The position numbers and the translations under genes were made by a program. Below the pieces are notes generated by a model. It was given only the letters and a program-made list of their open reading frames with translations. It was not told the origin of the DNA and ran no database searches. 16,995 bases of DNA, taken from a virus. The stretch lies in UHGV virus genome UHGV-1578124; one strand, 5' to 3'. Positions 10,153-16,995 of this stretch are shown here, piece after piece (position 1 is the first letter of the stretch; every line of letters starts with the position of its first letter).

Positions 10153-11568
10153 ATGAGCGAATTATTTAACCACGCAAAATTACATGCTGGTTTGACTGAA
10201 AATGGTGCTGTTAACCATCTGACCTCAATGTCTGCCTTGGTAGACTTTTATAAGGCTGCTGGTTCAAGCCGTAACTACCCAGAGACTCTACCAAATCTGT
10301 TTTACAAAGCTCTGCGAGAAGATATCGATGTAGCGGTTCGAATCTTACTTCATATGCGAGATGCACGAGAAGGTATGGGAGAACGTAAAGCATTCAGAAC
10401 TGTCCTCTCAGAATCTATCAGAACCAACATACTTGATGAGTTCCAAGTTCTGCGTATCATGGCTAAGATTTCTGAACTAGGTCGTTATGATGACTTCAAA
10501 ATCTTCGTAGGTACTCGTTACGAGACTGATGCTTTCAAGCACATTGAGCAAGGATTGTTAGACCCAAATACTTCAGCGTTAGCTGCTAAGTGGTTGCCAA
10601 GGGTTAAGAAGCGTCACATGAATTTTGTAAAGCGTTTCTGCAAGTTTGCAAATCTAAGCCAGAAAGAGTATCGTCTGATGTTATCAGCACTGTCAGATAC
10701 CGTAGAGCAAAAGATTTCTGCAAATGAGTTTGGTGAGATTGATTACAGCAAGCTTCCTTCACTGGCTGCTGCACGTTATCAGAAATTGTTCACACGAAAA
10801 GGTGGAGAACGTTATGCAGAGTATGTAAAAGCTCTGACAGAGGGTACTACCAAGATTAACGCTGGTGCTGTTTACCCATATGATATCACCAAAGCTGTGA
10901 AGTACGGTCGTAGTGAAGTGGCTAATGAGCAATGGAAAGCACTGCCAAACTGGATGAAGGATGGTGAAAACATTCTTTGCATGACTGACGTATCAGGCTC
11001 TATGACGTGTGAACGTCACGGTTCTGTAGACGCTCTTGATATTGGTGTATCTTTGGCGTTATACGTCGCAGAACGCAATACAGGGTGTTTTAAAGATGAG
11101 TTAATGGTTTACTCCACAAATCCATTCTTTATCACTCTAAGTGGCTCTCTGAAGAATCGTATGGCTCAGGTCATGTCACATGTAGAGTATGGTTCAACAA
11201 ACCTTCAAGCTGCTTTTGACAGGATTCTTGAAATTGGTAAAAGAAATAACTTGACTCAAGATGCAATGCCACGTAAGCTTATCATCTTCTCTGACATGCA
11301 GTTTAACTCTGTTGATGGTCAGCGTGGTAATACTAACTTCGAAGCAATTCGTCGTAAGTATGAAGAATCAGGTTATGAAATGCCTCAGTTGGTATTCTGG
11401 TATCTGGCAAATCGTGGTGGTAACTGCGAAGTGTCTATTAAGGATAACGGAGTAGCAATGGTTTCAGGGTTCTCTCCAGCTACATTAAAGGCTCTACTTG
11501 GTGGTGAGAAGTTTGACCCAATCAGCGTAATGCTAAAAGCAGTAATGTCTGAACGTTACGATTGGTAA
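10153..11568 (+). CDS. vWA-domain protein with ~270-aa N-terminal helical domain
   Basis: ATG (MSELFNH...) with GAGAGAG upstream; the track ORF starts earlier at 10084. MIDAS-like D-V-S-G-S-M near residue 280, then downstream T and D positions consistent with a vWA fold. Confidence 0.75.
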   Translation: MSELFNHAKLHAGLTENGAVNHLTSMSALVDFYKAAGSSRNYPETLPNLFYKALREDIDVAVRILLHMRDAREGMGERKAFRTVLSESIRTNILDEFQVLRIMAKISELGRYDDFKIFVGTRYETDAFKHIEQGLLDPNTSALAAKWLPRVKKRHMNFVKRFCKFANLSQKEYRLMLSALSDTVEQKISANEFGEIDYSKLPSLAAARYQKLFTRKGGERYAEYVKALTEGTTKINAGAVYPYDITKAVKYGRSEVANEQWKALPNWMKDGENILCMTDVSGSMTCERHGSVDALDIGVSLALYVAERNTGCFKDELMVYSTNPFFITLSGSLKNRMAQVMSHVEYGSTNLQAAFDRILEIGKRNNLTQDAMPRKLIIFSDMQFNSVDGQRGNTNFEAIRRKYEESGYEMPQLVFWYLANRGGNCEVSIKDNGVAMVSGFSPATLKALLGGEKFDPISVMLKAVMSERYDW

Positions 11569-11586: not shown

Positions 11587-11615
11587 TTGACAATGTTGTT
11601 GATACCCTGTAAGAT
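11587..11615 (+). promoter_or_regulatory. sigma70-like promoter TTGACA-17-TAAGAT
   Basis: Hexamers at 11587-11592 and 11610-11615; near-duplicate of the element at 13619. Confidence 0.5.
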
Positions 11616-11677
11616 GTTCTACATCGAAACGGAAAAGAGTTTTTCTAAAAGATTTTCAAAATGTTTTAAAAAACCTC

Positions 11678-11707
11678 TTGACAAACACTAAAAAATAATG
11701 TTATAGT
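11678..11707 (+). promoter_or_regulatory. sigma70-like promoter TTGACA-18-TATAGT, ~27 nt before the first tRNA
   Basis: Hexamers at 11678-11683 and 11702-11707. Confidence 0.55.
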
Positions 11708-11733: not shown

Positions 11734-11813
11734 CTCCGTTTAGCTCAGTTTGGTTTAGCAGCACTTGCTTTGGGAGCAAGGGGTCGAGGGTTCAAATCCT
11801 TCAACGGAGACCA
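11734..11813 (+). tRNA. tRNA-Pro (anticodon TGG)
   Basis: Acceptor CTCCGTT/AACGGAG; anticodon stem CTTGC/GCAAG, loop TTTGGGA; T-arm GAGGG-TTCAAAT-CCTTC; discriminator A; CCA encoded. Confidence 0.85.
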
Positions 11814-11819
11814 AATTAT

Positions 11820-11897
11820 GTTCCAGTAGACAAATTGGTAAAGTCACCACACTTTCAATGTGGAGTTTTGAGGGTTCAAGTCCCTTCTGGAACGCCA
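11820..11897 (+). tRNA. tRNA-Glu (anticodon TTC)
   Basis: Acceptor GTTCCAG/CTGGAAC; anticodon stem CCACA/TGTGG, loop CTTTCAA; T-loop TTCAAGT; discriminator G; CCA encoded. Confidence 0.8.
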
Positions 11898-11901
11898 AAT
11901 T

Positions 11902-11974
11902 TGACAGAAGACCAAATACAGCAAACAACTTTTACTTTTCGCGCATAGAAAACATAAAAAGCTTGGTCTGGTCA
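11902..11974 (+). ncRNA. structured spacer element E1 (bulged two-helix family)
   Basis: Outer helix TGAC (11902-05) / GTCA (11971-74); inner helix AGACCAA (11909-15) / TTGGTCT (11963-69); unpaired AGA opposite G. Confidence 0.55.
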
Positions 11975-11982
11975 TTAAGAAT

Positions 11983-12059
11983 CGCGGGTATAGAGAAAGG
12001 GCGTCTCACATGTCTCATTAGCATGGCAACGGTTGGTTCGACTCCAACACCCGCCTCCA
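11983..12059 (+). tRNA. tRNA with CAT anticodon (Met, Ile2 or initiator)
   Basis: Acceptor CGCGGGT/ACCCGCC with C1-C72 mismatch; D-stem GAGA/TCTC; anticodon stem CATGT/GCATG, loop CTCATTA; T-arm GTTGG-TTCGACT-CCAAC; discriminator U; CCA encoded. Confidence 0.65.
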
Positions 12060-12062
12060 AAT

Positions 12063-12130
12063 TTACAGAAGGCCGTTTACAGCAATTCAAACAATTTTAT
12101 CGGAAAATTAAAATGAATACGGTCTGGTAA
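12063..12130 (+). ncRNA. structured spacer element E2
   Basis: Outer TTAC (12063-66) / GTAA (12127-30); inner AGGCCGT (12070-76) / ACGGTCT (12119-25) with one G-U pair; AGA opposite G. Confidence 0.55.
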
Positions 12131-12140
12131 TGTTAAACAT

Positions 12141-12217
12141 GGTTAGGAAGCACATAAGGCATGTGCGGTCGGCTGTTAACCGAATGGCACAGGGTTCGAA
12201 TCCCTGACTAACCGCCA
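12141..12217 (+). tRNA. tRNA-Asn (anticodon GTT)
   Basis: Acceptor GGTTAGG/ACTAACC; D-stem GCAC/GTGC; anticodon loop CTGTTAA; T-arm CAGGG-TTCGAAT-CCCTG; discriminator G; CCA. Confidence 0.8.
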
Positions 12218-12284
12218 AATTTGGGAGAGAAGCGATTGCTCACCGATTTGTAAGGTGCAAGTCCTTAGCCTGAATAGAATAAAA

Positions 12285-12373
12285 TGCGTCGTTATCCCGT
12301 AGATGGAAGCGGTGGTGACTGTAAATCACTTGTCATTACGACTCGGTAGGTTCGACTCCTTCACGGCGCACCA
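12285..12373 (+). tRNA. tRNA-Tyr (anticodon GTA), type II
   Basis: Acceptor GCGTCGT/ACGGCGC; anticodon stem GGTGA/TCACT, loop CTGTAAA; long variable arm with GTC/GAC stem; T-loop TTCGACT; discriminator A; CCA. Confidence 0.8.
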
Positions 12374-12379
12374 AATAAA

Positions 12380-12456
12380 GGTTATGTAGTTTAACTGGTC
12401 AAAATACTCCCCTGTCACGGGAGATGATGAGGGTTCGAATCCCTTCGTAACCGCCA
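12380..12456 (+). tRNA. tRNA-Asp (anticodon GTC)
   Basis: Acceptor GGTTATG/CGTAACC; anticodon stem CTCCC/GGGAG, loop CTGTCAC; T-arm GAGGG-TTCGAAT-CCCTT; discriminator G; CCA. Confidence 0.85.
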
Positions 12457-12514
12457 AATTTGAGAGGGCTTTTTAGCCCCTCCCTTAAAGAGTTCTTTCG
12501 AGTATTCTTTAAAG

Positions 12515-12594
12515 GAGCAGAAGACCAAATTCAGCAAGCAACAAAAATATTTCAAGCCAATTTAATTTGAAAAATTTAAAACTTGGTCTGGTTC
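12515..12594 (+). ncRNA. structured spacer element E3
   Basis: Outer GAGC (12515-18) / GTTC (12591-94) with one G-U; inner AGACCAA (12522-28) / TTGGTCT (12583-89); AGA opposite G. Confidence 0.5.
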
Positions 12595-12602
12595 CAACAA
12601 TT

Positions 12603-12734
12603 TTACAGAAGACCGTTTACAGCAAACAATAAACAATCTATTTCTCTTATAAAGAAAAGGCGAAGGTTCGAATCCTTCACACGTTACGGCGTGTTGGTGT
12701 AATGGAAGCACTTAAGATAAATACGGTCTGGTAA
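12603..12734 (+). ncRNA. structured spacer element E4 with internal tRNA-like module
   Basis: Outer TTAC (12603-06) / GTAA (12731-34); inner AGACCGT (12610-16) / ACGGTCT (12723-29). Apical region 12662-12711 holds a canonical T-arm, an ACACG/CGTGT hairpin and a D-arm-like GTG-TAATGGAAG-CAC. Confidence 0.55.
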
Positions 12735-12738
12735 TCCT

Positions 12739-12871
12739 CTTTGCAGTGACTTATGGAGCTAATATGTCGTCCCATGAGTGCCGATGAGTTTCTTGAGCAT
12801 GATTCTAGATTAGCTTACTAAGAGACAACTCTACAAACCCTTTAGCAAGGTTTGCGTAGGTTACTGCAAAG
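12739..12871 (+). ncRNA. candidate structured RNA closed by a long-range helix
   Basis: CTTTGCAGTGAC (12739-50) pairs with GTTACTGCAAAG (12860-71). Interior holds two overlapping mini-ORFs (12764-12787 MSSHECR, 12784-12813 MSFLSMILD), the first with GGAG 6 nt upstream. Confidence 0.35.
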
Positions 12872-12881
12872 ATGATTTAAT

Positions 12882-12957
12882 GGAAGTGTAGCAGAATGGT
12901 GATGCGGCAGACTTTTAATCTGACAGGCGACGGGTTCGAATCCCTCCACTTCTACCA
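12882..12957 (+). tRNA. tRNA-Lys (anticodon TTT)
   Basis: Acceptor GGAAGTG/CACTTCT; anticodon stem CAGA/TCTG, loop CTTTTAA; weak T-arm (GACGG...CCCTC); discriminator A; CCA. Confidence 0.7.
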
Positions 12958-12962
12958 AATTC

Positions 12963-13029
12963 GCCCTTAACTGAAGAACACATGCGCGGCTGGAGACACC
13001 CACTCAATCAGTTCTTCTACAAAGGGCAA
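12963..13029 (+). ncRNA. large imperfect hairpin
   Basis: GCCCTT + GAAGAAC (12963-79) pair with GTTCTTC + AAGGGC (13011-29) around a 4x4 internal loop; ~31-nt apical loop; no U-tract follows. Confidence 0.4.
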
Positions 13030-13037
13030 CTTATTAC

Positions 13038-13114
13038 GGTTCAGTCGCAGATAAGGTAATGCAAGGGTTTCATAAGCCCTATGAATGTGGGTTCGATTCC
13101 CACTTGAACCTCCA
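13038..13114 (+). tRNA. tRNA-Met (anticodon CAT; could be Ile2 or initiator)
   Basis: Acceptor GGTTCAG/TTGAACC; anticodon stem AGGGT/GCCCT, loop TTCATAA; T-arm GTGGG-TTCGATT-CCCAC; discriminator U; CCA. Confidence 0.75.
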
Positions 13115-13116
13115 AT

Positions 13117-13191
13117 TGTGGGTTAGCATAAATGGTAATGCAAACGGCTGATAACCGTTAGAAGAGGGTTCGATACCCTCACCTACAACCA
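13117..13191 (+). tRNA. tRNA-Ile (anticodon GAT)
   Basis: Acceptor TGTGGGT/ACCTACA; D-stem GCAT/ATGC; anticodon stem AACGG/CCGTT, loop CTGATAA; T-arm GAGGG-TTCGATA-CCCTC; discriminator A; CCA. Confidence 0.8.
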
Positions 13192-13206
13192 AATTCAATA
13201 AAGTTG

Positions 13207-13235
13207 TTGATATTGAGATGTGACTACTTTATAGT
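13207..13235 (+). promoter_or_regulatory. sigma70-like promoter TTGATA-17-TATAGT
   Basis: Hexamers at 13207-13212 and 13230-13235; would drive the ~200-nt non-tRNA segment before tRNA-Arg(TCT). Confidence 0.5.
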
Positions 13236-13241
13236 AACCTT

Positions 13242-13403
13242 AGTTTTCGTTAGCGTAGCGTCTATTTTGCAAACTTAAAAATAAATGCAAACGATAATGT
13301 TTTTCTGGCAGTAGCTTAATAGGCTAAACACCAGTGAGGTCTTCCAACCCCTCATCAAAGAATTTGGCGTACTAGCCCACGGTATGATTAATAAGGTGGG
13401 CAT
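13242..13403 (+). ncRNA. candidate small RNA / transcribed spacer
   Basis: Lies downstream of the 13207 promoter; hairpins TAGC/GCTA (13312-26), TGAGG/CCTCA (13334-53), GCCCAC/GTGGGC (13375-13401); no tRNA fold and no ORF. Confidence 0.3.
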
Positions 13404-13440
13404 CTTTAAGGGCTTTCTAAGAGAGTCTTTAAAGATTAAT

Positions 13441-13517
13441 GCACCCTTAGTTCAATTGGATAGAGCAACGGTCTTCTAAATCGTTAGTTACAGGTTCGAA
13501 TCCTGTAGGGTGTGCCA
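13441..13517 (+). tRNA. tRNA-Arg (anticodon TCT)
   Basis: Acceptor GCACCCT/AGGGTGT; D-stem GTTC/GAGC; anticodon stem ACGGT/ATCGT, loop CTTCTAA; T-arm ACAGG-TTCGAAT-CCTGT; discriminator G; CCA. Confidence 0.85.
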
Positions 13518-13618
13518 ATTAGTTAGCAGATTACTTAGACGACCTTAGCGGGTCTTCCTGTAGGGAGGTGGTCTGTATCTCATGTTTTCCAGAACATGTA
13601 AATAATCTGAGAAGGGGC

Positions 13619-13647
13619 TTGACAGTGTTGTGATAATACGGTAAGCT
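13619..13647 (+). promoter_or_regulatory. sigma70-like promoter TTGACA-17-TAAGCT
   Basis: Hexamers at 13619-13624 and 13642-13647; the block TTGACAgTGTTGTGATA...TAAG matches the 11587 element. Confidence 0.45.
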
Positions 13648-13659
13648 TCGAATTATAGT

Positions 13660-13742
13660 ATGGGACGATGTTAAGACACTAAGGCATGTGCGTAAGCCTC
13701 CAAAACTTACTCAAAGGGGTTCGATTCCTCCGTCCCATGCCA
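13660..13742 (+). tRNA. tRNA-Trp (anticodon CCA), atypical 80 nt
   Basis: Acceptor ATGGGAC/GTCCCAT (perfect); anticodon loop CTCCAAA; T-loop TTCGATT; discriminator G; CCA. There are about 7 extra nt between the acceptor stem and the D-arm. Confidence 0.6.
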
Positions 13743-13755
13743 AAGTCTCATTAGG

Positions 13756-13843
13756 GGTAGGTAGCGGCTAATGGTAGCCAAACTGTCTTGAAAACAGTTG
13801 CCACTGTAGAGATACGGTGAGGGTTCGACTCCTTTACTTACCG
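13756..13843 (+). tRNA. tRNA-Ser (anticodon TGA), type II
   Basis: Acceptor GGTAGGT/ACTTACC; anticodon stem ACTGT/ACAGT, loop CTTGAAA; variable-arm hairpin CTGTA-GAGA-TACGG; T-loop TTCGACT; discriminator G; 3' tail reads CCT, not CCA. Confidence 0.75.
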
Positions 13844-13923
13844 CCTAATAAGATTTAATTCCCGCGCTCGTCGAACAAGCTCGGTTTTTACTCGTGTATT
13901 GGCGTACACGGCACGACTATAAA

Positions 13924-13938
13924 ACACCTAGTAGGTGT
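13924..13938. promoter_or_regulatory. 15-bp palindrome ACACCTA-g-TAGGTGT (candidate protein-binding site)
   Basis: Perfect 7-bp inverted arms around a central G, in the 250-nt tRNA-free spacer 13847-14093. Confidence 0.4.
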
Positions 13939-14093
13939 CACGGAGAAGAGATAGTATCAAGCTCTCCAAAGGTTCTAGTCACCGGATTGAATAAGACTAT
14001 ATAAAGACTGTTTAGGTCTTTTTAGAGAATTGCTGAGGCATTTGATACCATTGTTGCTTTGGCGTCTTAGCAGTTCTCTACAAAGATTTAATG

Positions 14094-14171
14094 GGAGATT
14101 GACGGTAATTGGTAAACCTACCATCCTTAGAAGTTGGTGTTTGAGGGTTCGAATCCCTTGTCTCCTACCAA
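14094..14171 (+). tRNA. tRNA with anticodon TAG (Leu codon CUA), type I
   Basis: Acceptor GGGAGAT/GTCTCCT (G-U pairs at both ends); anticodon stem CCATC/GTTGG, loop CTTAGAA; T-arm GAGGG-TTCGAAT-CCCTT; discriminator A; CCA; no long variable arm. Confidence 0.6.
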
Positions 14172-14178
14172 ATTAATG

Positions 14179-14254
14179 CAGGTGTAGCAAAATGGTTATG
14201 CGGCTGACTCTTAATCAGTAAGACGATGGGTTCAATTCCCTCCACCTGTACCAA
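14179..14254 (+). tRNA. tRNA-Lys (anticodon CTT)
   Basis: Acceptor GCAGGTG/CACCTGT; anticodon stem GCTGA/TCAGT, loop CTCTTAA; same weak T-arm as Lys(TTT); discriminator A; CCA. Confidence 0.7.
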
Positions 14255-14260
14255 ATATCG

Positions 14261-14336
14261 GGGATGTAGTTTACATGGTTAAAACATAAGTTTTGCAAAC
14301 TTAAGTACAGGGTTCAATTCCCTGCTTCTCCACCAA
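14261..14336 (+). tRNA. tRNA-Ala (anticodon TGC)
   Basis: Acceptor GGGGATG/CTTCTCC with a G3-U70 wobble (the known Ala identity pair); D-stem GTTT/AAAC; anticodon stem TAAGT/ACTTA, loop TTTGCAA; T-arm CAGGG-TTCAATT-CCCTG; discriminator A; CCA. Confidence 0.85.
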
Positions 14337-14342
14337 TTAGTG

Positions 14343-14417
14343 CATCCATAGTTTAAACGGGAAAATTACAGTCTTCCAAACTGAGGTTGAGGGTTCGATT
14401 CCCTCTGGATGCTCCAA
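14343..14417 (+). tRNA. tRNA-Gly (anticodon TCC)
   Basis: Acceptor GCATCCA/TGGATGC (perfect); anticodon loop CTTCCAA; T-arm GAGGG-TTCGATT-CCCTC; discriminator U (as in Gly tRNAs); CCA. Confidence 0.85.
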
Positions 14418-14423
14418 ATAATG

Positions 14424-14500
14424 CTGCTTTCGTATAATTGGCTATTACACATCCCTTGTAAGGATGGAGATGCGGGTTCAAGTCCTGTGAGCAGCACCAA
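14424..14500 (+). tRNA. tRNA-Thr (anticodon TGT)
   Basis: Acceptor GCTGCTT/GAGCAGC; anticodon stem CATCC/GGATG, loop CTTGTAA; T-loop TTCAAGT; discriminator A; CCA. Confidence 0.8.
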
Positions 14501-14504
14501 TTTG

Positions 14505-14588
14505 AGGTCAAGTGAAAGGCCGCTTGAGTCAACTGAGACCGTAGCAAATTCCACGGAGTTGAGTTAGCGGCACAACTTCAGACCTCTT
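14505..14588 (+). ncRNA. nested-helix structured element between tRNA-Thr and tRNA-Val
   Basis: Closing helix GAGGTC (14505-10) / GACCTC (14583-88), second helix GCCGC/GCGGC, internal direct repeat TTGAGT x2; followed by a CTTTTAAAG motif. Confidence 0.4.
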
Positions 14589-14594
14589 TTAAAG

Positions 14595-14669
14595 CTCGCT
14601 TAGTTTATACGGTAAAGCCCCATCCTTACAAGTTGGTGAAGAAGGTTCAAGTCCTTCAGCGAGTACCAA
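14595..14669 (+). tRNA. tRNA-Val (anticodon TAC)
   Basis: Acceptor GCTCGCT/AGCGAGT; D-stem GTTT/AAGC; anticodon stem CCATC/GTTGG, loop CTTACAA; T-arm GAAGG-TTCAAGT-CCTTC; discriminator A; CCA. Confidence 0.8.
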
Positions 14670-14670
14670 G

Positions 14671-14748
14671 TTCCAGTATCCCAATTGGCAGAGGATGCAA
14701 GCTCAAACCTTGTATTAGTGACGGTTCGAATCCGTCTTGGAACACCAA
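14671..14748 (+). tRNA. tRNA with anticodon CAA (Leu codon UUG), type I
   Basis: Acceptor GTTCCAG/TTGGAAC; anticodon stem GCAAG/CTTGT, loop CTCAAAC; T-arm GACGG-TTCGAAT-CCGTC; discriminator A; CCA; 75 nt. Confidence 0.6.
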
Positions 14749-14762
14749 ATTAGGAGATTCCT

Positions 14763-14975
14763 ATGAAGCCTTATGGTAGACATGGTAAAGTTGAAATTGC
14801 AAGTTGTGGTTGCTGTGCTTCTCACGATGGTGAAGAAGATTACTACAAGTGGCGTACAGACCATCGTAGACGCTTTCTCAGAAGAGATAAGAAGAAAGCT
14901 AGACAGGAATCTCAAAAGAATATTGCAGAATTAGTTCAAACGGATAGAGCAGCAGCCTACGAAGTTGTTTGTTAG
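14763..14975 (+). CDS. small basic cysteine-containing protein (70 aa)
   Basis: AGGAG 5 nt upstream of ATG; contains C-G-C-C; its last ~17 codons run through the 5' two-thirds of tRNA-Arg(ACG), so the true 3' end is uncertain. Confidence 0.45.
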   Translation: MKPYGRHGKVEIASCGCCASHDGEEDYYKWRTDHRRRFLRRDKKKARQESQKNIAELVQTDRAAAYEVVC

Positions 14976-15001
14976 GGGTTCGAATCCCTTATTCTGCACC
15001 A
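14925..15001 (+). tRNA. tRNA-Arg (anticodon ACG)
   Basis: Acceptor GCAGAAT/ATTCTGC (perfect); D-stem GTTC/GAGC; anticodon stem GCAGC/GTTGT, loop CTACGAA; T-arm AGGGG-TTCGAAT-CCCTT; discriminator A; CCA. Confidence 0.85.
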
Positions 15002-15019
15002 ATTTTAGAAGGTAATTAT

Positions 15020-15247
15020 ATGCGTAAACTCATTATTGAAAGGCATAAAGATGCTGACAAGATTGCAACAACACAAGTTGGGGACACTGACTTCATTCTT
15101 GTAGGTTGGAAATGTGACCCAATAGCAGTTATGAAGGTTGTTCATGGTTTTGCAGGAATTGAATTTAATCAAATCATATTTGAAACGCTATTACCAGAAA
15201 ATCAGGATACGTGTAATAACGCATATGTCCTGACAAGAGTTCGTTAG
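15020..15247 (+). CDS. small protein (75 aa), paralog of 15292-15519
   Basis: AGAAGG ~7 nt upstream of ATG (MRKLIIERH...); the track ORF starts earlier inside the tRNA. Shares blocks with the next gene (GDT-FI-VGWK-DP, FAG-E, QVIFET-LPEN-DTCNNAY-LTRV). Confidence 0.65.
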   Translation: MRKLIIERHKDADKIATTQVGDTDFILVGWKCDPIAVMKVVHGFAGIEFNQIIFETLLPENQDTCNNAYVLTRVR

Positions 15248-15273
15248 GGGTTCGAATCCCTTATTCTGCACCA
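15244..15273 (+). pseudogene. tRNA 3' fragment (T-arm + acceptor 3' strand + CCA)
   Basis: A 31-nt stretch (GTTAGGGGTTCGAATCCCTTATTCTGCACCA, from 15243) is identical to the 3' end of tRNA-Arg(ACG) at 14971-15001; no matching 5' acceptor strand, D-arm or anticodon arm upstream. Confidence 0.65.
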
Positions 15274-15291
15274 AATTTAAAAGGGTAACTT

Positions 15292-15519
15292 ATGTTTAAA
15301 CTCATAGTTGAAAAACACCCAGAAGATGACAAGCTTGAAACAGGGAGATTTGGAGATACTTTCTTTATCAGAGTTGGCTGGAAAGCTGACCCATTAGAAG
15401 TTAGAAAGATTGTCTACAACTTTGCTGGTTTGGAATTAAAGCAAGTCATCTTTGAAACAATGTTGCCAGAAAATAAAGATACATGCAATAACGCATATAT
15501 TCTTACAAGAGTTAGTTAG
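15292..15519 (+). CDS. small protein (75 aa), paralog of 15020-15247
   Basis: AAAGGG upstream of ATG; stop codon TAG (15517-19) overlaps the first nucleotides of tRNA-Gln(TTG). Confidence 0.65.
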   Translation: MFKLIVEKHPEDDKLETGRFGDTFFIRVGWKADPLEVRKIVYNFAGLELKQVIFETMLPENKDTCNNAYILTRVS

Positions 15520-15593
15520 GGGATTAGTTTACAAGGTTAAAACCTCGGTCTTTGAAATCGAAGAAGTTGGTTCAATTCCAACATCCCCCGCCA
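15518..15593 (+). tRNA. tRNA-Gln (anticodon TTG)
   Basis: Acceptor AGGGGAT/ATCCCCC with unpaired 1-72; D-stem GTTT/AAAC; anticodon stem TCGGT/ATCGA, loop CTTTGAA; T-arm GTTGG-TTCAATT-CCAAC; discriminator G; CCA. Confidence 0.75.
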
Positions 15594-15595
15594 AT

Positions 15596-15674
15596 GCTCC
15601 ATTACTCCAATTGGCAGAGAGGCCAGACTTAAAATCTGTGTTATGTATCGGTTCGAATCCGATATGGAGTACCA
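15596..15674 (+). tRNA. tRNA with anticodon TAA (Leu codon UUA), type I
   Basis: Acceptor GCTCCAT/ATGGAGT; anticodon stem CAGA/TCTG, loop CTTAAAA; T-arm ATCGG-TTCGAAT-CCGAT; discriminator A; CCA; 76 nt with a 7-nt variable region. Confidence 0.6.
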
Positions 15675-15680
15675 AATATT

Positions 15681-15756
15681 AGCAGTGTAGCATAACTGGC
15701 AATGCTCCAGCCTCTGAAGCTGAAAGATTAAGGTTCAAATCCTTACGCTGCTGCCA
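15681..15756 (+). tRNA. tRNA-Gln (anticodon CTG)
   Basis: Acceptor AGCAGTG/CGCTGCT; D-stem GCAT/ATGC; anticodon loop CTCTGAA; T-arm TAAGG-TTCAAAT-CCTTA; discriminator G; CCA. Confidence 0.75.
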
Positions 15757-15787
15757 CTTCTAAGGGTTCTTACGAGAGTCCTTAAAT

Positions 15788-15864
15788 GTGGCCTTATCAT
15801 AAACGGATAATGACCCATGCTGTGAACATGGTCTATACGGGTTCGATTCCCGTAGGTCACCCCA
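15788..15864 (+). tRNA. tRNA-His (anticodon GTG)
   Basis: Acceptor GTGGCCT/AGGTCAC; D-stem TCAT/ATGA; anticodon stem CCATG/CATGG, loop CTGTGAA; T-arm ACGGG-TTCGATT-CCCGT; discriminator C; CCA. Position -1 is T, not the usual encoded G. Confidence 0.8.
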
Positions 15865-15871
15865 ATTCAAT

Positions 15872-15947
15872 AGCTCAATTAGCTTATATGGTTAAAGCGC
15901 GTGTCTGAAAAACATGAGAACAGGGTTCAAATCCCGATGGGCTACCA
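15872..15947 (+). tRNA. tRNA-Phe (anticodon GAA)
   Basis: Acceptor AGCTCAA/ATGGGCT; anticodon stem CGTGT/ACATG, loop CTGAAAA; T-loop TTCAAAT with a weak 3-4 bp T-stem; discriminator A; CCA. Confidence 0.65.
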
Positions 15948-15963
15948 ATTTTATAGGTGCATA

Positions 15964-16698
15964 ATGAAAGAGATGACAGGACAAGGTAAAGAGATTTTCA
16001 GTCTCCTTAAATCCGGTAACGGGTTCTCTAACCCTCTTATTACTGGTGCAGCAGTTCTTGGTGGTACAGTTGCCGCTTCTCAGTCATTAGTAACTTCTAT
16101 TGGTTCTGTATCAGACCCAGCTACCCAGCAAATTCTTATTGCTGCTGGCTTGACAACTGCCTTACTAAGCAGCTTTACAACAAGCCTTGGTAGCACCACT
16201 TCAACGACAACCACTTTAACTGACTATGGACAGAAGTCTGTAGATGAGTTTTCACAACGTATGCAAGTAGCTAAAGGTTACTCTAACGTTATGGGAGCAG
16301 CAGGTGAACAAGTCGGTTGTACACCGTTTAGTGGAATCATGGGAGTTGCTACAGAGTACGGTAACAAAGCTATGGATTTGATTAATACATCCATAGACGC
16401 TGTAAATGGCGTTCTAAGCGATTTACAAGATGCGATTGATAAAGGACTAGACACCATCTCTGAACTCGCTACACAGGCTGTTACAGTGATTAATGAGGGT
16501 ATGGCAAAGATTACCGCCTACGCTAATGAAGTGGCTCAGATGATTGCAGATGAAGCAGCCCTGATTGCTGACTACCTTAAAACGAATATTAATGGTTTTC
16601 TTGCTAATGTCTTACCAGATTGGTTTGATGATGCTTGTAAAACTGGTGTGATTGATACAATCGCAACTCCAGAGATGAAAGATGCTCTAAACAAATAA
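15964..16698 (+). CDS. hypothetical Ser/Thr/Ala/Gly-rich protein (244 aa)
   Basis: The track ORF starts at 15901 inside tRNA-Phe. First ATG after the tRNA (MKEMTGQ...) has AGGTG 4 nt upstream. Confidence 0.6.
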   Translation: MKEMTGQGKEIFSLLKSGNGFSNPLITGAAVLGGTVAASQSLVTSIGSVSDPATQQILIAAGLTTALLSSFTTSLGSTTSTTTTLTDYGQKSVDEFSQRMQVAKGYSNVMGAAGEQVGCTPFSGIMGVATEYGNKAMDLINTSIDAVNGVLSDLQDAIDKGLDTISELATQAVTVINEGMAKITAYANEVAQMIADEAALIADYLKTNINGFLANVLPDWFDDACKTGVIDTIATPEMKDALNK

Positions 16699-16701
16699 TT
16701 T

Positions 16702-16794
16702 GGAAGATTAACCCTAAAAGGTAAGGGAGTAGTTTGCTAAACTGCCAGTAACCGAGAAATCGGCGTACCAGTTCAAGTCTGGTATCTTCCTCCA
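16702..16794 (+). tRNA. tRNA-Ser (anticodon GCT), type II
   Basis: Acceptor GGAAGAT/ATCTTCC (perfect); D-stem CCC/GGG; anticodon stem GTAGT/ACTGC, loop TTGCTAA; variable-arm hairpin CCGA-GAAA-TCGG; T-arm ACCAG-TTCAAGT-CTGGT; discriminator U; CCA. Confidence 0.8.
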
Positions 16795-16801
16795 AATTAA
16801 T

Positions 16802-16878
16802 GTGTCGGTGGCAGAAATGGATTATGCGCCTGTCTGCAAAACAGGTATATAAGGGTTCAAGTCCCTTCCGATACTCCA
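16802..16878 (+). tRNA. tRNA-Cys (anticodon GCA)
   Basis: Acceptor GTGTCGG/CCGATAC; anticodon stem CCTGT/ACAGG, loop CTGCAAA; T-arm AAGGG-TTCAAGT-CCCTT; discriminator U (as in Cys tRNAs); CCA. Confidence 0.8.
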
Positions 16879-16911: not shown

Positions 16912-16970
16912 GCCCTGCTATGAGTATTCTCCCTTTCGCTACCGGAGAGTATTTTTAGACAGGGCTTTTT
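16912..16970 (+). terminator. candidate intrinsic terminator closing the tRNA array
   Basis: Outer stem GCCCTG (16912-17) / CAGGGC (16959-64), inner stem TCTCC/GGAGA, followed by TTTTTT (16965-70). Confidence 0.5.
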
Positions 16971-16995
16971 TGTAGAGTTATACTTTATGGGAAGA

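What the first reader, a model, noticed from the sequence alone, without database searches (positions are those of the whole stretch)
11734..16878. Very dense phage tRNA super-array with encoded CCA
By hand-folding I find 27 tRNA genes in about 5.1 kb covering 18 amino acids, often separated by only 2-10 nt, and almost all with CCA encoded followed by A/T. Acceptor, anticodon and T-arm pairings are listed per gene in the features. Two identity elements support the calls independently of the anticodon: G3-U70 in tRNA-Ala and C73 in tRNA-His. The array is interrupted by promoters, small ORFs and non-tRNA RNA elements, so it is more than a simple tRNA operon.
Basis: seen in the sequence. Interest (0 to 1): 0.5.

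Follow-up and report, generated by a model that had tools for sequence, protein, structure and literature searches.

The report
Felix O1-type phage tRNA gene cluster
This is the well-known tRNA gene cluster of a Felix O1-like (Mooglevirus) phage of enterobacteria, correctly read by hand; the parts worth a closer look are the non-tRNA RNAs inside it, namely four Y-RNA-like elements next to a Ro60-like gene and a tmRNA-like tag module.

Summary
ARAGORN finds 25 tRNA genes at 11734-16878, all on the + strand and none elsewhere in the window. Rfam's tRNA model reaches its gathering score for 24 of them. Two more are real but atypical: tRNA-Tyr(GUA) at 12286-12373 and a tRNA-Trp-like gene (CCA) at 13660-13742. 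CCA is encoded in 26 of 27. G3-U70 in tRNA-Ala and C73 in tRNA-His are present.

The array itself is not new. The DNA is 90-95% identical to annotated Mooglevirus/Ounavirinae phages such as Shigella phage ESh21, Sf17 and Mijalis, where the same cluster lies between the same flanking genes.

The interruptions could be identified:
- **Y-RNA-like repeats.** Four repeats (11899-12740) resemble Y RNAs. The fourth has the V-T-acceptor-D layout of YrlA. They lie just downstream of an ORF (10153-11568) whose predicted fold matches Ro60.
- **tmRNA-like module.** A module at 13239-13404 has its own promoter, encodes the tag ANDNVFLAVA, and is followed by two pseudoknots. It has no tRNA-like domain in cis. 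Similar modules occur in over 600 phage records from unrelated families.
- **Other elements.** There are structured spacers and four ORFs.

Earlier ARAGORN reports of a "permuted tmRNA" in this phage group appear to merge the first two elements.

The parts
10153..11568 (+). Ro60-like (TROVE + vWA fold) protein gene, 471 aa, directly upstream of the array
   Evidence: Pfam DUF2828 + DUF7788 and PHROG 850 'RNA-binding protein'. AlphaFold2 model has pLDDT 89.8. The top 9 Foldseek PDB hits are all Ro60/TROVE structures, E 7e-10 to 3e-6, TM 0.53-0.64 for six of them and 0.36 for D. radiodurans Rsr and human Ro60. The syntenic Bas63 gp130 was reported as Ro60-like (10.1101/2024.10.10.617714).
11587..11707 (+). 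Two sigma-70-type promoter-like sites upstream of the first tRNA (11587-11615 and 11678-11707)
   Evidence: Matches of 10/12 and 11/12, the second with an extended -10 TG. The total number of sites in the region is no more than chance, so function is inferred from strength and position only.
11734..11813 (+). tRNA-Pro(UGG)
   Evidence: ARAGORN; Rfam 54.1 bits
11820..11897 (+). tRNA-Glu(UUC)
   Evidence: ARAGORN; Rfam 62.5 bits
11899..11980 (+). Y-RNA-like element E1: bulged terminal stem, UACAGCAA motif, AU-rich loop, no tRNA-like module
   Evidence: Motif search; model R1 31 bits; fold
11983..12059 (+). Atypical tRNA with anticodon CAU: C1xC72 mismatch, U73, U37
   Evidence: ARAGORN. MFE is a clean cloverleaf. 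Never found by Rfam. Called at the same place in relatives.
12060..12136 (+). Y-RNA-like element E2
   Evidence: R1 54.1 bits; weak Rfam Dicty_Class_I_RNA hit of 25.8 bits; fold
12141..12217 (+). tRNA-Asn(GUU)
   Evidence: ARAGORN; Rfam 45.5 bits
12286..12373 (+). tRNA-Tyr(GUA), long variable arm, U50-U64 mismatch in the T stem
   Evidence: Relaxed ARAGORN; Rfam 22.8 bits. Called as Tyr in relatives. Compensatory changes in acceptor and anticodon stems.
12380..12456 (+). tRNA-Asp(GUC)
   Evidence: ARAGORN; Rfam 66 bits
12512..12598 (+). Y-RNA-like element E3
   Evidence: Motif search; R1 18.4 bits with filters off; fold
12600..12740 (+). Y-RNA-like element E4 (YrlA-like): terminal stem AGACCGU/ACGGUCU enclosing V, T, capped acceptor-like and D stem-loops
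   Evidence: Fold; alignments; R1 174.7 bits; covariation. Its V and T arms produce the Rfam 'tRNA' hit at 12612-12686, 30.9 bits.
12741..12881 (+). Conserved structured spacer RNA, function unknown
   Evidence: MFE -40.7 kcal/mol, z -3.6; nearly invariant in Mooglevirus relatives
12882..12957 (+). tRNA-Lys(UUU)
   Evidence: ARAGORN; Rfam 54.2 bits
13038..13114 (+). tRNA with anticodon CAU (elongator Met or lysidine-modified Ile2; not distinguished)
   Evidence: ARAGORN; Rfam 53.5 bits
13117..13191 (+). tRNA-Ile(GAU)
   Evidence: ARAGORN; Rfam 63.4 bits
13207..13235 (+). Promoter-like site TTGATA-17-TATAGT directly upstream of the tmRNA-like module
   Evidence: Scan, 10/12. A promoter-like site sits at the same relative position in ZX4, pYD38-A, Akira and Kolesnikvirus.
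13239..13404 (+). tmRNA-like mRNA module: resume codon GCA at 13287, tag ANDNVFLAVA (13287-13316), stops TAA TAG (13317-13322), stop-codon hairpin, two pseudoknot-type helices; no tRNA-like domain in cis
   Evidence: Rfam tmRNA_permuted 33.8 bits and tmRNA 16.3 bits, both below the gathering score of 47; nhmmer; tag variants; pair counts; no acceptor partner found
13441..13517 (+). tRNA-Arg(UCU)
   Evidence: ARAGORN; Rfam 62.8 bits
13660..13742 (+). tRNA-Trp-like gene: loop CCUCCAAAA containing CCA, G73, encoded CCA, oversized D region
   Evidence: Relaxed ARAGORN 'tRNA-???'; Rfam tRNA-Sec model 20.1 bits; fold; compensatory changes in anticodon, D and T stems across relatives
13756..13845 (+). 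tRNA-Ser(UGA); the only gene without a full encoded CCA (GCC then U)
   Evidence: ARAGORN; Rfam 33.2 bits; sequence
14093..14170 (+). tRNA-Leu(UAG)
   Evidence: ARAGORN; Rfam 40 bits
14178..14253 (+). tRNA-Lys(CUU)
   Evidence: ARAGORN; Rfam 56.9 bits
14260..14335 (+). tRNA-Ala(UGC) with G3-U70 and A73
   Evidence: ARAGORN; Rfam 62.7 bits; sequence
14342..14416 (+). tRNA-Gly(UCC)
   Evidence: ARAGORN; Rfam 59.6 bits
14423..14499 (+). tRNA-Thr(UGU)
   Evidence: ARAGORN; Rfam 51.5 bits
14594..14668 (+). tRNA-Val(UAC)
   Evidence: ARAGORN; Rfam 55.8 bits
14670..14747 (+). tRNA-Leu(CAA)
   Evidence: ARAGORN; Rfam 44 bits
14763..14975 (+). Small ORF (70 aa) with a Shine-Dalgarno sequence; its last 51 nt overlap tRNA-Arg(ACG)
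   Evidence: ORF list; PHROG 10765, E 8e-50; annotated with the same overlap in ESh21 and SUSP1
14925..15001 (+). tRNA-Arg(ACG)
   Evidence: ARAGORN; Rfam 58.3 bits
15020..15519 (+). Tandem duplication: two paralogous 75-aa ORFs (15020-15247 and 15292-15519) separated by a copy of the 3' half of tRNA-Arg(ACG) at about 15245-15275. The stop codon of the second ORF overlaps the first 2 nt of tRNA-Gln.
   Evidence: Both ORFs match PHROG 14202; weak Rfam tRNA hit at 15202-15270, 19.6 bits; sequence
15518..15593 (+). tRNA-Gln(UUG), A1xC72 mismatch
   Evidence: ARAGORN; Rfam 56.6 bits; sequence
15596..15674 (+). tRNA-Leu(UAA)
   Evidence: ARAGORN; Rfam 47.5 bits
15681..15756 (+). tRNA-Gln(CUG)
   Evidence: ARAGORN; Rfam 60.7 bits
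15788..15864 (+). tRNA-His(GUG): C73 present, T at position -1
   Evidence: ARAGORN; Rfam 49.3 bits; sequence
15872..15947 (+). tRNA-Phe(GAA)
   Evidence: ARAGORN; Rfam 39.2 bits
15964..16698 (+). 244-aa ORF inside the array (DUF7217), function unknown
   Evidence: Pfam DUF7217, E 6.5e-82; PHROG 2114; same position in relatives
16702..16794 (+). tRNA-Ser(GCU)
   Evidence: ARAGORN; Rfam 42.8 bits
16802..16878 (+). tRNA-Cys(GCA)
   Evidence: ARAGORN; Rfam 56.7 bits
16912..16971 (+). Intrinsic terminator closing the array: long hairpin followed by U6
   Evidence: Fold -28.1 kcal/mol, z -5.6; a terminator is annotated between tRNA-Cys and the next gene in Mijalis, which I take to be the equivalent site

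Best explanation
The region is the tRNA gene cluster of a Mooglevirus (subfamily Ounavirinae, Felix O1-like) myophage.

**What is shown.**
- There are 27 co-oriented tRNA genes covering all 20 amino acids: 25 canonical, plus tRNA-Tyr, plus an atypical tRNA-Trp-like gene.
- They lie between a Ro60-like gene and the terminase genes, as in relatives.

**What is inferred about expression.**
- The genes are transcribed as long precursors from sigma-70-type promoters at about 11.6 kb and 13.2 kb and end at a terminator at 16.9 kb.
- Host RNase P cuts the 5' ends.
- Host 3' exonucleases trim back to the encoded CCA, so no CCA addition is needed except for tRNA-Ser(UGA).

**What is inferred about function.**
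- The main role is to supply decoders for the A/U-rich codons of a 39% G+C phage translated in a roughly 51% G+C host.
- The phage ORFs in this window use AGA, ACA, UCA, CCA, CUA, GUA and AAG heavily, and the array carries the cognate tRNAs. One is tRNA-Lys(CUU), which E. coli lacks.
- A complete set also keeps translation going if host tRNAs are depleted or cleaved.

**The interruptions are separate functional modules.**
- Four Y-RNA-like elements, one with a YrlA-type tRNA-like domain, most likely bind the adjacent Ro60-like protein.
- A separately promoted tmRNA-derived tag module has an unknown mode of action.
- There are also structured spacers and four conserved ORFs.
For: **tRNA calls:**

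**Conservation and covariation of the two atypical genes:**

**Identity with annotated Mooglevirus clusters and synteny:** 299 phage records match, the best at 95.3%.

**Literature:** tRNA clusters of 21-26 genes are reported for Felix O1, wV8, Moogle and C600M2 (PMC2674420, PMC4319497, PMC8759396).

**Promoters and terminator:**

**Encoded CCA and spacing:**

**Codon usage of 3316 codons from the window's ORFs, per 1000:**

| Codon | Frequency |
|---|---|
| AGA | 18.4 |
| ACA | 26.8 |
| UCA | 18.7 |
| CCA | 18.1 |
| CUA | 10.0 |
| GUA | 20.2 |
| AAG | 41.3 |

Window G+C is 39.3%. That these codons are rare or much less used in E. coli K-12 is established knowledge recalled from standard codon tables, not computed here.

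**Ro60-like fold:**

**Y-like RNA family next to homologues of that gene, with covariation:**
Against: - Bas63 (Felixounavirus) tRNA genes were mostly non-essential on four laboratory E. coli strains, so codon supply is not limiting under those conditions.
- The array also carries tRNAs for codons the host decodes well, which a pure rare-codon model does not require.
- Several genes are atypical, and their charging is untested: the Met-like gene with C1xC72 and U37, tRNA-His without an encoded G-1, the Trp-like gene with a 9-nt loop, and tRNA-Tyr with a T-stem mismatch.
- Promoter-like sites in the region are not more numerous than in shuffled sequence.
- No expression data were available.
Confidence: 0.9

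Rival explanations
1. The array exists mainly as a counter-defence. A full private set of tRNAs would replace host tRNAs that anticodon nucleases or other tRNA-targeting immune systems destroy. Codon matching would then be secondary.
For: - The set covers all 20 amino acids, not only rare codons.
- Bas63 tRNAs are dispensable on laboratory strains, and the authors suggest conditional use against tRNA nucleases.
- The neighbouring Ro60-like gene of Bas63 counters the Ppl defence system.
- RNA-repair and RNA-surveillance-type modules (Y-like RNAs, the tmRNA-like module) are embedded in the array.
Against: - Codon usage of the phage ORFs fits the anticodon set well.
- No comparison of anticodon loops with host tRNAs was made here.
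- The two roles are not mutually exclusive.
Confidence: 0.35
2. The four repeats E1-E4 are not Y RNAs. They would be processing or termination signals of the tRNA precursor (for example RNase III or RNase E sites), or recombination sites that shuffle tRNA cassettes. E4 would be a decayed, rearranged tRNA gene.
For: - They sit directly after tRNA 3' ends, following CCAAAUUU.
- Rfam's YrlA model does not hit them in this window.
- The YrlA 5' motif GNCGAAN0-1G is absent.
- The fold z-scores of E1-E4 are weak, -0.7 to -1.8.
- tRNA content differs between relatives around these elements.
Against: - Model R1 finds the same architecture beside about 40%-identical homologues of the Ro60-like gene in unrelated IMG/VR contigs. 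Hits are always on the gene's strand and often 16-450 nt from the gene.
- All five helices covary: 93.5% of cells paired against 36-43% in slid controls, and 26 of 28 pairs show double changes.
- Rfam YrlA hits two of those distant sites, at 39.2 and 24.7 bits.
- The acceptor-like stem-loop is kept by compensatory changes while its loop varies.
Confidence: 0.25
3. The tag-encoding element at 13239-13404 together with E4 forms a genuine two-piece (permuted) tmRNA, as ARAGORN reports for Moogle, Mijalis and Felix O1. It would carry out trans-translation with a phage-specific tag.
For: - ARAGORN calls a permuted tmRNA at 3471-4219 in Mijalis with tag ANDNVFLAVA.
- tmRNA is reported for Moogle and Felix O1 (PMC4319497, PMC4392139).
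- In Mijalis the acceptor-like stem of E4 has 7 bp followed by G-CCA.
- The tag is conserved at the protein level with synonymous changes.
- The pseudoknot helices covary.
Against: - The two parts are about 600 nt apart, with tRNA-Lys, a second CAU-anticodon tRNA and tRNA-Ile between them, so RNase P would sever them.
- The tag module has its own promoter.
- In this window and in most relatives the acceptor-like stem is capped by a loop with no CCA.
- No G3-U70 is present in any version.
- No acceptor partner for the 5' end of the tag RNA was found in cis in 12 phages.
- The tag module occurs without E4-like elements in ViI-like, N4-like and sipho-type phages.
- Rfam scores are below the gathering score.
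- Relaxed ARAGORN pairs the same tag with the T-arm of whichever tRNA is nearby.
Confidence: 0.1

Closest known systems
tRNA clusters of Felix O1-like phages (Ounavirinae: Felix O1, wV8, Moogle, Mijalis, Sf17, ESh21)
   Same: - Same genes in the same order and on the same strand.
- Same flanking genes: the Ro60-like gene upstream, and the DUF7217 ORF and terminase downstream.
- 90-95% DNA identity.
- Gene counts of 21-26 are reported in the literature.
   Different: - Only strain-level differences.
- There is a tandem duplication of a small ORF plus a tRNA-Arg 3' fragment at 15020-15519. The duplication is absent from Mijalis, where tRNA-Gln follows tRNA-Arg after 7 nt.
- Annotations in relatives miss Tyr, the Trp-like gene or the Met-like gene, depending on the tool used.
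YrlA-type bacterial and phage Y RNAs partnered with Ro60/Rsr (Chen et al. 2014, PMC4201824; Thermus phage phiLo Ro60-Yrl, PMC12135203)
   Same: - Encoded next to a Ro60-fold protein.
- A terminal stem formed by the 5' and 3' ends.
- The internal order V, T, acceptor-like stem-loop, D.
- In Mijalis a 7-bp acceptor-like stem with CCA, like M. smegmatis YrlA, which RNase P cleaves.
- Shorter paralogues lacking the tRNA-like module, as with YrlB.
   Different: - The protein belongs to the DUF2828 branch, not the branch annotated as TROVE.
- The conserved motif beside the stem is UU(U/A)CAGCAA, not GNCGAAN0-1G or CGAA.
- Rfam RF02553 does not reach threshold.
- There are four copies, interleaved with genuine tRNA genes.
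- Binding has not been tested.
tmRNA (SsrA), standard and permuted forms
   Same: - The context AUAAAU before a GCA resume codon.
- A 10-residue tag of the ANDxxxLAxA type, with double stop codons.
- The stop codon lies in a hairpin.
- Two H-type pseudoknot helices follow.
- Partial Rfam alignments to the mRNA-like region.
   Different: - No acceptor stem, no G3-U70 and no CCA joined to it.
- It has its own promoter a few nucleotides before the conserved GUUUUCGU.
- It is about 170 nt instead of about 360 nt.
- The tag ends in LAVA or LMAA rather than ALAA.
- It is found in lytic phages of several families.
tRNA clusters of T4, T5 and other large lytic phages
   Same: - Dense co-oriented tRNA genes with short spacers.
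- Non-tRNA stable RNAs and small ORFs inside the cluster.
- Processing by host RNase P.

These points are established knowledge, not tested here.
   Different: No sequence relationship was examined. This array is larger than T4's, which has 8 tRNAs.
Dictyostelium Class I RNAs (Rfam RF01414; PMC7919456)
   Same: - The same terminal signature: AAG, a short covarying stem joining the 5' and 3' ends, the motif UUACAGCAA next to the 5' strand, a variable AU-rich interior, and CUG(U/G) after the 3' strand.
   Different: - Scores of 21-26 bits against a gathering score of 41.5.
- No hits in six distant phage loci.
- The Dictyostelium RNAs are eukaryotic nuclear genes with their own promoter element.
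- No link to a Ro60-like protein is known for them.
- The resemblance may be coincidence.

Membership tests
Bacterial-type tRNA genes | Cloverleaf scored by an independent covariance model at or above the curated threshold | tested here: met
   24 of 25 ARAGORN genes score 33-66 bits against a gathering score of 29. The Met-like gene at 11983-12059, tRNA-Tyr (22.8 bits) and the Trp-like gene do not reach it.
Bacterial-type tRNA genes | Stems maintained by compensatory changes in relatives (checked for the two sub-threshold genes) | tested here: met
   - Tyr: anticodon stem U-A, C-G and G-C at one pair; acceptor pair 2-71 C-G or U-A.
- Trp-like: anticodon stem GUAAG/CUUAC against AACGG/CCGUU; D stem CAC/GUG against CUC/GAG.
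Bacterial-type tRNA genes | Aminoacylation and use in translation | not testable with these tools
   Only identity elements could be read. G3-U70 and A73 are present in Ala. C73 is present in His but G-1 is not encoded. G73 and the CCA anticodon are present in the Trp-like gene.
Ounavirinae (Felix O1-like) tRNA cluster | Nucleotide similarity and conserved gene order with annotated members | tested here: met
   299 phage records match, and 182 cover at least 80% of the 5.3 kb query. The best is 95.3%, to Shigella phage ESh21. The same order of tRNAs and flanking genes is seen.
YrlA-type Y RNA | Encoded adjacent to a Ro60 orthologue | tested here: met
   The ORF at 10153-11568 has a Ro60 fold. 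E1 begins 331 nt downstream of its stop codon. In distant contigs the RNA lies 16-450 nt from the gene.
YrlA-type Y RNA | 5'/3' terminal stem enclosing V, T, acceptor-like and D stem-loops in that order | tested here: met
   Fold. Pair counts on 37 distinct sequences: 93.5% paired, and 26 of 28 pairs have changes on both sides. Because the alignment was fitted to the model, the percentage paired leans towards the structure.
YrlA-type Y RNA | Conserved 5' motif GNCGAAN0-1G (the proposed Ro60 contact) | tested here: not met
   The conserved motif next to the stem is UU(U/A)CAGCAA. No GNCGAAG is present in E1-E4.
YrlA-type Y RNA | Rfam RF02553 at or above the gathering score (69 bits) | tested here: not met
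   No hit on E4. Sub-threshold hits occur at two R1-positive sites in distant loci: 39.2 bits (E 3.9e-5) and 24.7 bits.
YrlA-type Y RNA | Binding to the Ro60 protein | not testable with these tools
   Needs immunoprecipitation or gel-shift assays.
tmRNA | Tag reading frame with resume codon and stop, conserved as a coding sequence | tested here: met
   Tags found: ANDNVFLAVA, ANDAQFLAVA, ANDNTFLAVA, ANEEMYLAVA, ANDDVVLMAA and ANDDVILMAA. They show synonymous third-position changes and interchangeable stop codons. The overlapping AUG frame loses its stop in Kolesnikvirus.
tmRNA | Pseudoknots flanking the tag | tested here: met
   The stop hairpin plus three pseudoknot helices are 99.5% paired, with 8 of 18 pairs changed on both sides and none changed on one side only. 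Slid controls give 31-46%.
tmRNA | tRNA-like domain: acceptor stem with G3-U70, T-arm and CCA, joined to the mRNA part covalently or by pairing | tested here: not met
   No acceptor partner was found in cis in 12 phages. E4 lies 600 nt away, is capped by a loop in this window, and lacks G3-U70.
tmRNA | Rfam RF00023 or RF04321 at or above the gathering score (47 bits) | tested here: not met
   33.8 and 16.3 bits. The RF04321 alignment borrows the T-arm of tRNA-Ile.
Dictyostelium Class I RNA | Rfam RF01414 at or above the gathering score (41.5 bits) | tested here: not met
   E2 scores 25.8 bits and E4 21.2 bits. There were no hits in six distant loci.

The most novel reading that the evidence does not exclude
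The 'non-tRNA elements' at the head of the array would be a previously undescribed subfamily of Y RNAs that load the neighbouring Ro60-like (DUF2828) protein.

- The subfamily is defined by a bulged terminal stem plus the motif UU(U/A)CAGCAA.
- It has one long member with a complete tRNA-like module and three short members.
- It is conserved beside this protein family across very different phages.
- It would explain the ARAGORN 'permuted tmRNA' calls in Felix O1-type genomes.

Two further leads are less certain.

- The same terminal signature in Dictyostelium Class I RNAs could mean that those orphan RNAs are Y RNAs too.
- The tmRNA-like tag RNA without a tRNA domain, shared by over 600 phage records from unrelated families, could be a new way for phages to interfere with or exploit ribosome rescue.
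Probability: 0.5. Interest if true: 0.7.

Novelty: already known. Interest (0 to 1): 0.35.

Why it matters
The tRNA array itself adds nothing new. It is a strain-level variant of a cluster annotated in hundreds of Felix O1-like genomes.

What matters is what sits inside it.

- **Y RNA candidates for Bas63 gp130.** A 2024 preprint showed that the Ro60-like protein of the related phage Bas63 counters the Ppl defence system, and guessed that some of the neighbouring 'tRNAs' might be Y RNAs. This analysis names concrete candidates (E1-E4). It also shows that the same RNA architecture accompanies the protein family in distant phages. The RNP can therefore be tested directly.
- **Correction of an annotation.** The analysis indicates that the 'tmRNA' reported for Felix O1 and Moogle is a merger of two separate elements.
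- **A widespread unannotated RNA.** The tmRNA-like tag module is conserved across Ounavirinae, Ackermannviridae, Schitoviridae and several siphophage genera, and has no described function.

Tried and rejected
1. **A true permuted tmRNA spanning E4 to the tag.** Rejected. Three tRNAs and a promoter lie between the parts. There is no CCA in this window and no G3-U70. Relaxed ARAGORN pairs the tag with any nearby T-arm.
2. **An acceptor partner for the tag RNA in cis.** None was found in 12 phages.
3. **Linkage of the tag module to the Ro60-like gene.** nhmmer found the module only in Ounavirinae among 80 Ro60-like loci, so the two are independent modules.
4. **Rfam YrlA on E4.** No hit.
5. **Sequence search of the Ro60-like protein against PDB and NCBIfam.** Nothing was found. 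Only the fold search worked.
6. **Foldseek against afdb50, to ask whether Dictyostelium has a DUF2828 protein.** The library was not available, and the literature searches did not answer the question.
7. **Supplements of the tmRNA database paper and of Chen et al. 2014.** They are not held or contain no phage list.
8. **Felix O1 record, positions 8000-20000.** It does not contain the tRNA region, so Felix O1 itself was not examined.
9. **The Rfam GA-level 'tRNA' at 12612-12686.** Rejected as a tRNA gene. It is the V and T arms of E4, with a poorly paired acceptor.
10. **The weak Rfam tRNA hit at 15202-15270.** It is a duplicated 3' fragment of tRNA-Arg(ACG), not a gene.

Full report
**1. Observation**

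ARAGORN with default settings reports 25 tRNA genes between 11734 and 16878. All are on the + strand, and it reports none in the remaining 11.7 kb of the window. Rfam's tRNA model reaches its gathering score for 23 of them in a whole-window scan. It also does so for tRNA-His (49.3 bits) when only the array is searched, so that miss was caused by the speed filters. The single ARAGORN gene that Rfam never finds is the CAU-anticodon gene at 11983-12059. That gene nevertheless folds as a clean cloverleaf with an unpaired C1, and ARAGORN calls it at the same place in all relatives examined.

- **tRNA-Tyr(GUA), 12286-12373.** It appears with relaxed ARAGORN thresholds and scores 22.8 bits with Rfam. 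It has a U50-U64 mismatch in the T stem. In relatives the anticodon stem and acceptor pair 2-71 change in a compensatory way.
- **tRNA-Trp-like gene, 13660-13742.** It has a loop CCUCCAAAA containing the anticodon CCA, followed by G73 and an encoded CCA, as in E. coli tRNA-Trp (recalled from knowledge, not computed). Its D region is oversized. Its anticodon, D and T stems all covary across Mooglevirus and Felixounavirus.

With these two the set covers 20 amino acids rather than 18.

- Eleven of 24 gaps are 1-7 nt.
- 26 of 27 genes encode CCA; tRNA-Ser(UGA) has GCC followed by U. The next base is A in 25 of 26.
- tRNA-Ala has G3-U70 and A73.
- tRNA-His has C73, but the base at -1 is T, so the usual G-1 is not encoded.

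**2. What it is**

The 5.3 kb region matches 299 phage records. Of these, 182 cover at least 80% of the query, and the best is 95.3% identical (Shigella phage ESh21, genus Mooglevirus, subfamily Ounavirinae). Annotated relatives carry the same tRNAs in the same order between the same flanking genes: ESh21, 3HA14, Mijalis, VSe102 and SUSP1, and more distantly the Kolesnikvirus phi63_307.

The literature describes 21-26 tRNAs for Felix O1, wV8, Moogle and others. The array is therefore already known. Differences in gene counts between annotations reflect which tool was used and whether the atypical genes were caught.

**3. How it most likely works**

The strongest + strand promoter-like sites are at 11587-11615 and 11678-11707, ahead of tRNA-Pro, and at 13207-13235. 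The overall number of such sites is not above chance. A long hairpin followed by U6 at 16912-16971 closes the array (a terminator is annotated between tRNA-Cys and the next gene in Mijalis).

Transcription into long precursors, 5' cleavage by host RNase P and 3' trimming back to the encoded CCA are inferred from general knowledge of bacterial and phage tRNA operons.

The window is 39.3% G+C. Its ORFs use the following codons heavily, per 1000 codons:

| Codon | Frequency |
|---|---|
| AGA | 18.4 |
| ACA | 26.8 |
| UCA | 18.7 |
| CCA | 18.1 |
| CUA | 10.0 |
| GUA | 20.2 |
| AAG | 41.3 |

The array supplies the cognate tRNAs, including tRNA-Lys(CUU). These codons are rare or much less frequent in E. 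coli, and E. coli has no tRNA-Lys(CUU); both statements are recalled from standard tables, not computed here.

Codon supply is therefore the best-supported role. A counter-defence role is a live, non-exclusive rival. Bas63 tRNAs are mostly dispensable on laboratory strains, and the authors point to tRNA nucleases.

**4. The interruptions: Y-RNA-like elements**

*Four repeats.* Four repeats share the pattern ACAGAAGRCC(AAA/GUU)U(A/U)CAGCAA ... (UUGG/ACGG)UCUGGU. They are E1 (11899-11980), E2 (12060-12136), E3 (12512-12598) and E4 (12600-12740). The inner 7-bp stem covaries between copies (AGACCAA/UUGGUCU against AGACCGU/ACGGUCU). An outer stem beyond an AGA/G bulge also covaries (UGAC/GUCA, UUAC/GUAA, GGAGC/GUUCC).

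*E4 has an internal tRNA-like module.* E1-E3 have AU-rich interiors. E4 encloses four stem-loops in this order:

- V (UUUCU/AGAAA).
- T (GAAGG-UUCGAAU-CCUUC).
- An acceptor-like stem capped by a loop (ACACG/CGUGU).
- D (GUGU-AAUGGAA-GCAC).

The acceptor-like stem is maintained by compensatory changes. It reads ACUCG/CGAGU in VSe102 and ACCCUUC/GAAGGGU in Mijalis, where the loop happens to read GCCAAACA.

*This matches YrlA.* The layout is that of YrlA-type Y RNAs (V, T, acceptor-like stem-loop, D inside a 5'/3' stem). The Mijalis form parallels M. smegmatis YrlA, whose 7-bp stem is cut by RNase P and receives CCA (PMC4201824).

*The neighbouring protein has a Ro60 fold.* The ORF just upstream (10153-11568; DUF2828 + DUF7788; PHROG 'RNA-binding protein') gives a confident AlphaFold2 model (pLDDT 89.8). 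Its nine best PDB matches are all Ro60/TROVE structures (Xenopus, human, D. radiodurans, Thermus phage phiLo), with E from 7e-10 to 3e-6. The same family is annotated 'Ro-like RNA binding protein' in mycobacteriophages and occurs in 710 phage records. For the related phage Bas63, gp130 was reported as Ro60-like and as a counter to the Ppl defence. The authors speculated that some neighbouring 'tRNAs' are Y RNAs but named none.

*The RNA accompanies the protein in distant phages.* I built a covariance model from E4 of six Ounavirinae (R1). I searched it against 80 IMG/VR loci that encode homologues of the protein, mostly about 40% identical.

- All but the weakest of the 70 matches fall on the strand of the gene.
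- In non-Ounavirinae contigs many matches lie 16-450 nt from the gene: L084, L031, L045, L020, L083, L078, L086, L038 and L073.
- The aligned matches keep AAG, then a stem, then UU(U/A)CAGCA(A), then V, T, acceptor-like stem-loop and D, then the stem and CUG.
- On 37 distinct sequences, 93.5% of cells pair against 36-43% when partners are slid. Twenty-six of 28 pairs show changes on both sides. The alignment was fitted to the model, which favours the percentage paired.
- Independently, Rfam's YrlA model hits two of these distant sites below threshold, at 39.2 bits (E 3.9e-5) and 24.7 bits.

*Assessment.* I conclude that E1-E4 are Y-RNA-like partners of the Ro60-like protein. Binding is untested, the published YrlA motif GNCGAAN0-1G is absent, and RF02553 does not reach threshold here. 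I therefore do not file them as YrlA members. They work like YrlA/YrlB but form a distinct subfamily.

**5. The interruptions: a tmRNA-like tag module**

*What it contains.* Downstream of the promoter-like site at 13207-13235 lies AUAAAU-GCA AAC GAU AAU GUU UUU CUG GCA GUA GCU-UAA UAG. This encodes the tag ANDNVFLAVA. Rfam aligns this stretch to the mRNA-like region of tmRNA_permuted (33.8 bits) and tmRNA (16.3 bits), both below the gathering score of 47. The first alignment borrows the T-arm of tRNA-Ile.

*It is widespread and unannotated.* blastn finds the module in 618 phage records, almost always unannotated. Besides Ounavirinae it occurs in:

- Ackermannviridae (Det7, KpS110).
- Schitoviridae (IME11, UTK0001).
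- Roufvirus, Akiravirus, Carvajevirus and others.

*The tag is under coding selection.* The tags vary as a coding sequence would: ANDAQFLAVA, ANDNTFLAVA, ANEEMYLAVA, ANDDVVLMAA and ANDDVILMAA. They show synonymous third-position changes and interchangeable stop codons. The overlapping AUG frame is not conserved.

*The structure covaries.* The stop-codon hairpin and three helices of two H-type pseudoknots are 99.5% paired in 12 diverse sequences. Eight of 18 pairs are changed on both sides and none on one side only. Slid controls give 31-46%.

*No tRNA-like domain is attached.* In several phages a promoter sits only a few nucleotides before the conserved GUUUUCGU. No acceptor partner exists in cis. 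Among the Ro60-like loci the module is confined to Ounavirinae.

*ARAGORN's tmRNA calls.* ARAGORN's permuted 'tmRNA' in Mijalis (3471-4219) spans E4, three tRNAs and this tag. The same kind of call probably underlies the one-line reports for Moogle and Felix O1, though I could not check that. With relaxed settings ARAGORN pairs the same tag with any nearby T-arm. I therefore read the published tmRNA as a merger of two separate elements. How a tag RNA without a tRNA domain acts is unknown.

**6. Other contents of the array**

- **Structured spacers.** They fold far better than shuffles: 12457-12515 (z -3.9), 12741-12881 (z -3.6), 12958-13037 (z -5.1), 13991-14092 (z -4.9) and 14500-14593 (z -4.2).
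- **ORF 14763-14975** (PHROG 10765). It has a Shine-Dalgarno sequence and runs 51 nt into tRNA-Arg(ACG).
- **Two paralogous 75-aa ORFs** (PHROG 14202). They form a tandem duplication that also copies the 3' half of tRNA-Arg. The stop codon of the second overlaps the first 2 nt of tRNA-Gln.
- **A 244-aa DUF7217 protein** at 15964-16698, in a conserved position.

**7. A resemblance noted but not established**

Rfam's Dictyostelium Class I RNA model weakly hits E2 (25.8 bits) and E4 (21.2 bits), against a gathering score of 41.5. The published features of those RNAs are an AAG start, a short covarying terminal stem, an 11-nt motif CCUUACAGCAA next to the 5' strand, a variable interior and a CUGU end (PMC7919456). 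These match the terminal signature of the phage elements closely. The model gave no hits in six distant phage loci. I could not determine whether dictyostelids have a DUF2828 protein. This remains a lead only.

**8. Verdict**

The array itself is already known and ordinary for this phage group. The added value lies in three points:

- Identification of the embedded Y-RNA-like family next to a Ro60-fold protein.
- Reinterpretation of the ARAGORN 'tmRNA' calls in this phage group.
- Recognition of a widespread, unannotated tmRNA-like tag RNA.

Noticed in passing
window 13239-13404 (promoter-like site 13207-13235; tag 13287-13322): A tmRNA-like tag module encoding ANDNVFLAVA, with a stop-codon hairpin and two covarying pseudoknots but no tRNA-like domain. 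It occurs in 618 phage records from unrelated families, almost always unannotated. Rfam scores are below threshold.
   Followed up: partly
window 11899-12740, with ORF 10153-11568: Four Y-RNA-like repeats, the fourth with a YrlA-type V-T-acceptor-D module, lie just downstream of a protein with a Ro60 fold. The same RNA architecture lies beside homologues of the protein in distant IMG/VR contigs, with strong covariation.
   Followed up: yes
window 12060-12136 and 12600-12740; Rfam RF01414: The terminal signature of the Y-like elements is AAG, stem, UUACAGCAA, stem, CUG. It matches the defining features of Dictyostelium Class I RNAs, which were reported as unique to dictyostelids. Rfam scores are only 21-26 bits, and it is unknown whether dictyostelids have a DUF2828 protein.
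   Followed up: partly
window 14763-15001 and 15020-15593: Small conserved ORFs end inside tRNA sequence. One runs 51 nt into tRNA-Arg(ACG). Another has its stop codon across the 5' end of tRNA-Gln. RNase P cleavage would therefore leave these messages without a stop codon. A tandem duplication carries a copy of the tRNA-Arg 3' half.
   Followed up: partly
window 15787-15864: tRNA-His has C73 but T at position -1, so the G-1 that bacterial HisRS normally needs is not encoded.
   Followed up: no
window 11983-12059: This CAU-anticodon tRNA has a C1xC72 mismatch (reminiscent of initiator tRNA), U73 and U37. It is conserved in relatives but invisible to Rfam's tRNA model. Its identity (initiator, elongator Met or Ile2) is unresolved, as is that of the second CAU gene at 13038-13114.
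   Followed up: partly
window 12457-12515, 12741-12881, 12958-13037, 13991-14092, 14500-14593: The spacers between tRNAs fold into long hairpins whose ends pair (z -3.6 to -5.1). The closing stem of 12741-12881 covaries with VSe102. Their function is unknown.
   Followed up: partly
L012 3795-3964 (Kolesnikvirus phi63_307) and L005 1255-1335 (Det7): Just upstream of the tag module these phages carry tRNA-like genes with no anticodon arm. In phi63_307 it has a 7-bp acceptor stem, a T-arm and G-CCA around a roughly 100-nt insert. In Det7 it is a mini tRNA-like element ending in ACA. Neither pairs with the tag RNA.
   Followed up: no
L038 1293-1616; L020 10720-10946: An IMG/VR contig carrying the Ro60-like gene also has a genuine permuted tmRNA (RF04321 71.7 bits, above the gathering score). 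Another contig has a group I intron (71.5 bits).
   Followed up: no
window 15964-16698: A 244-aa DUF7217 protein is encoded inside the array at a conserved position. It is annotated as a putative membrane protein in Mijalis. It also matches the C-terminal part of PHROG 289.
   Followed up: no
loci L013-L092: About a third of 80 phage contigs encoding the Ro60-like protein have two or more tRNA genes within 5 kb, on the same strand. The pairing of this gene with tRNA arrays is therefore common beyond Ounavirinae.
   Followed up: partly
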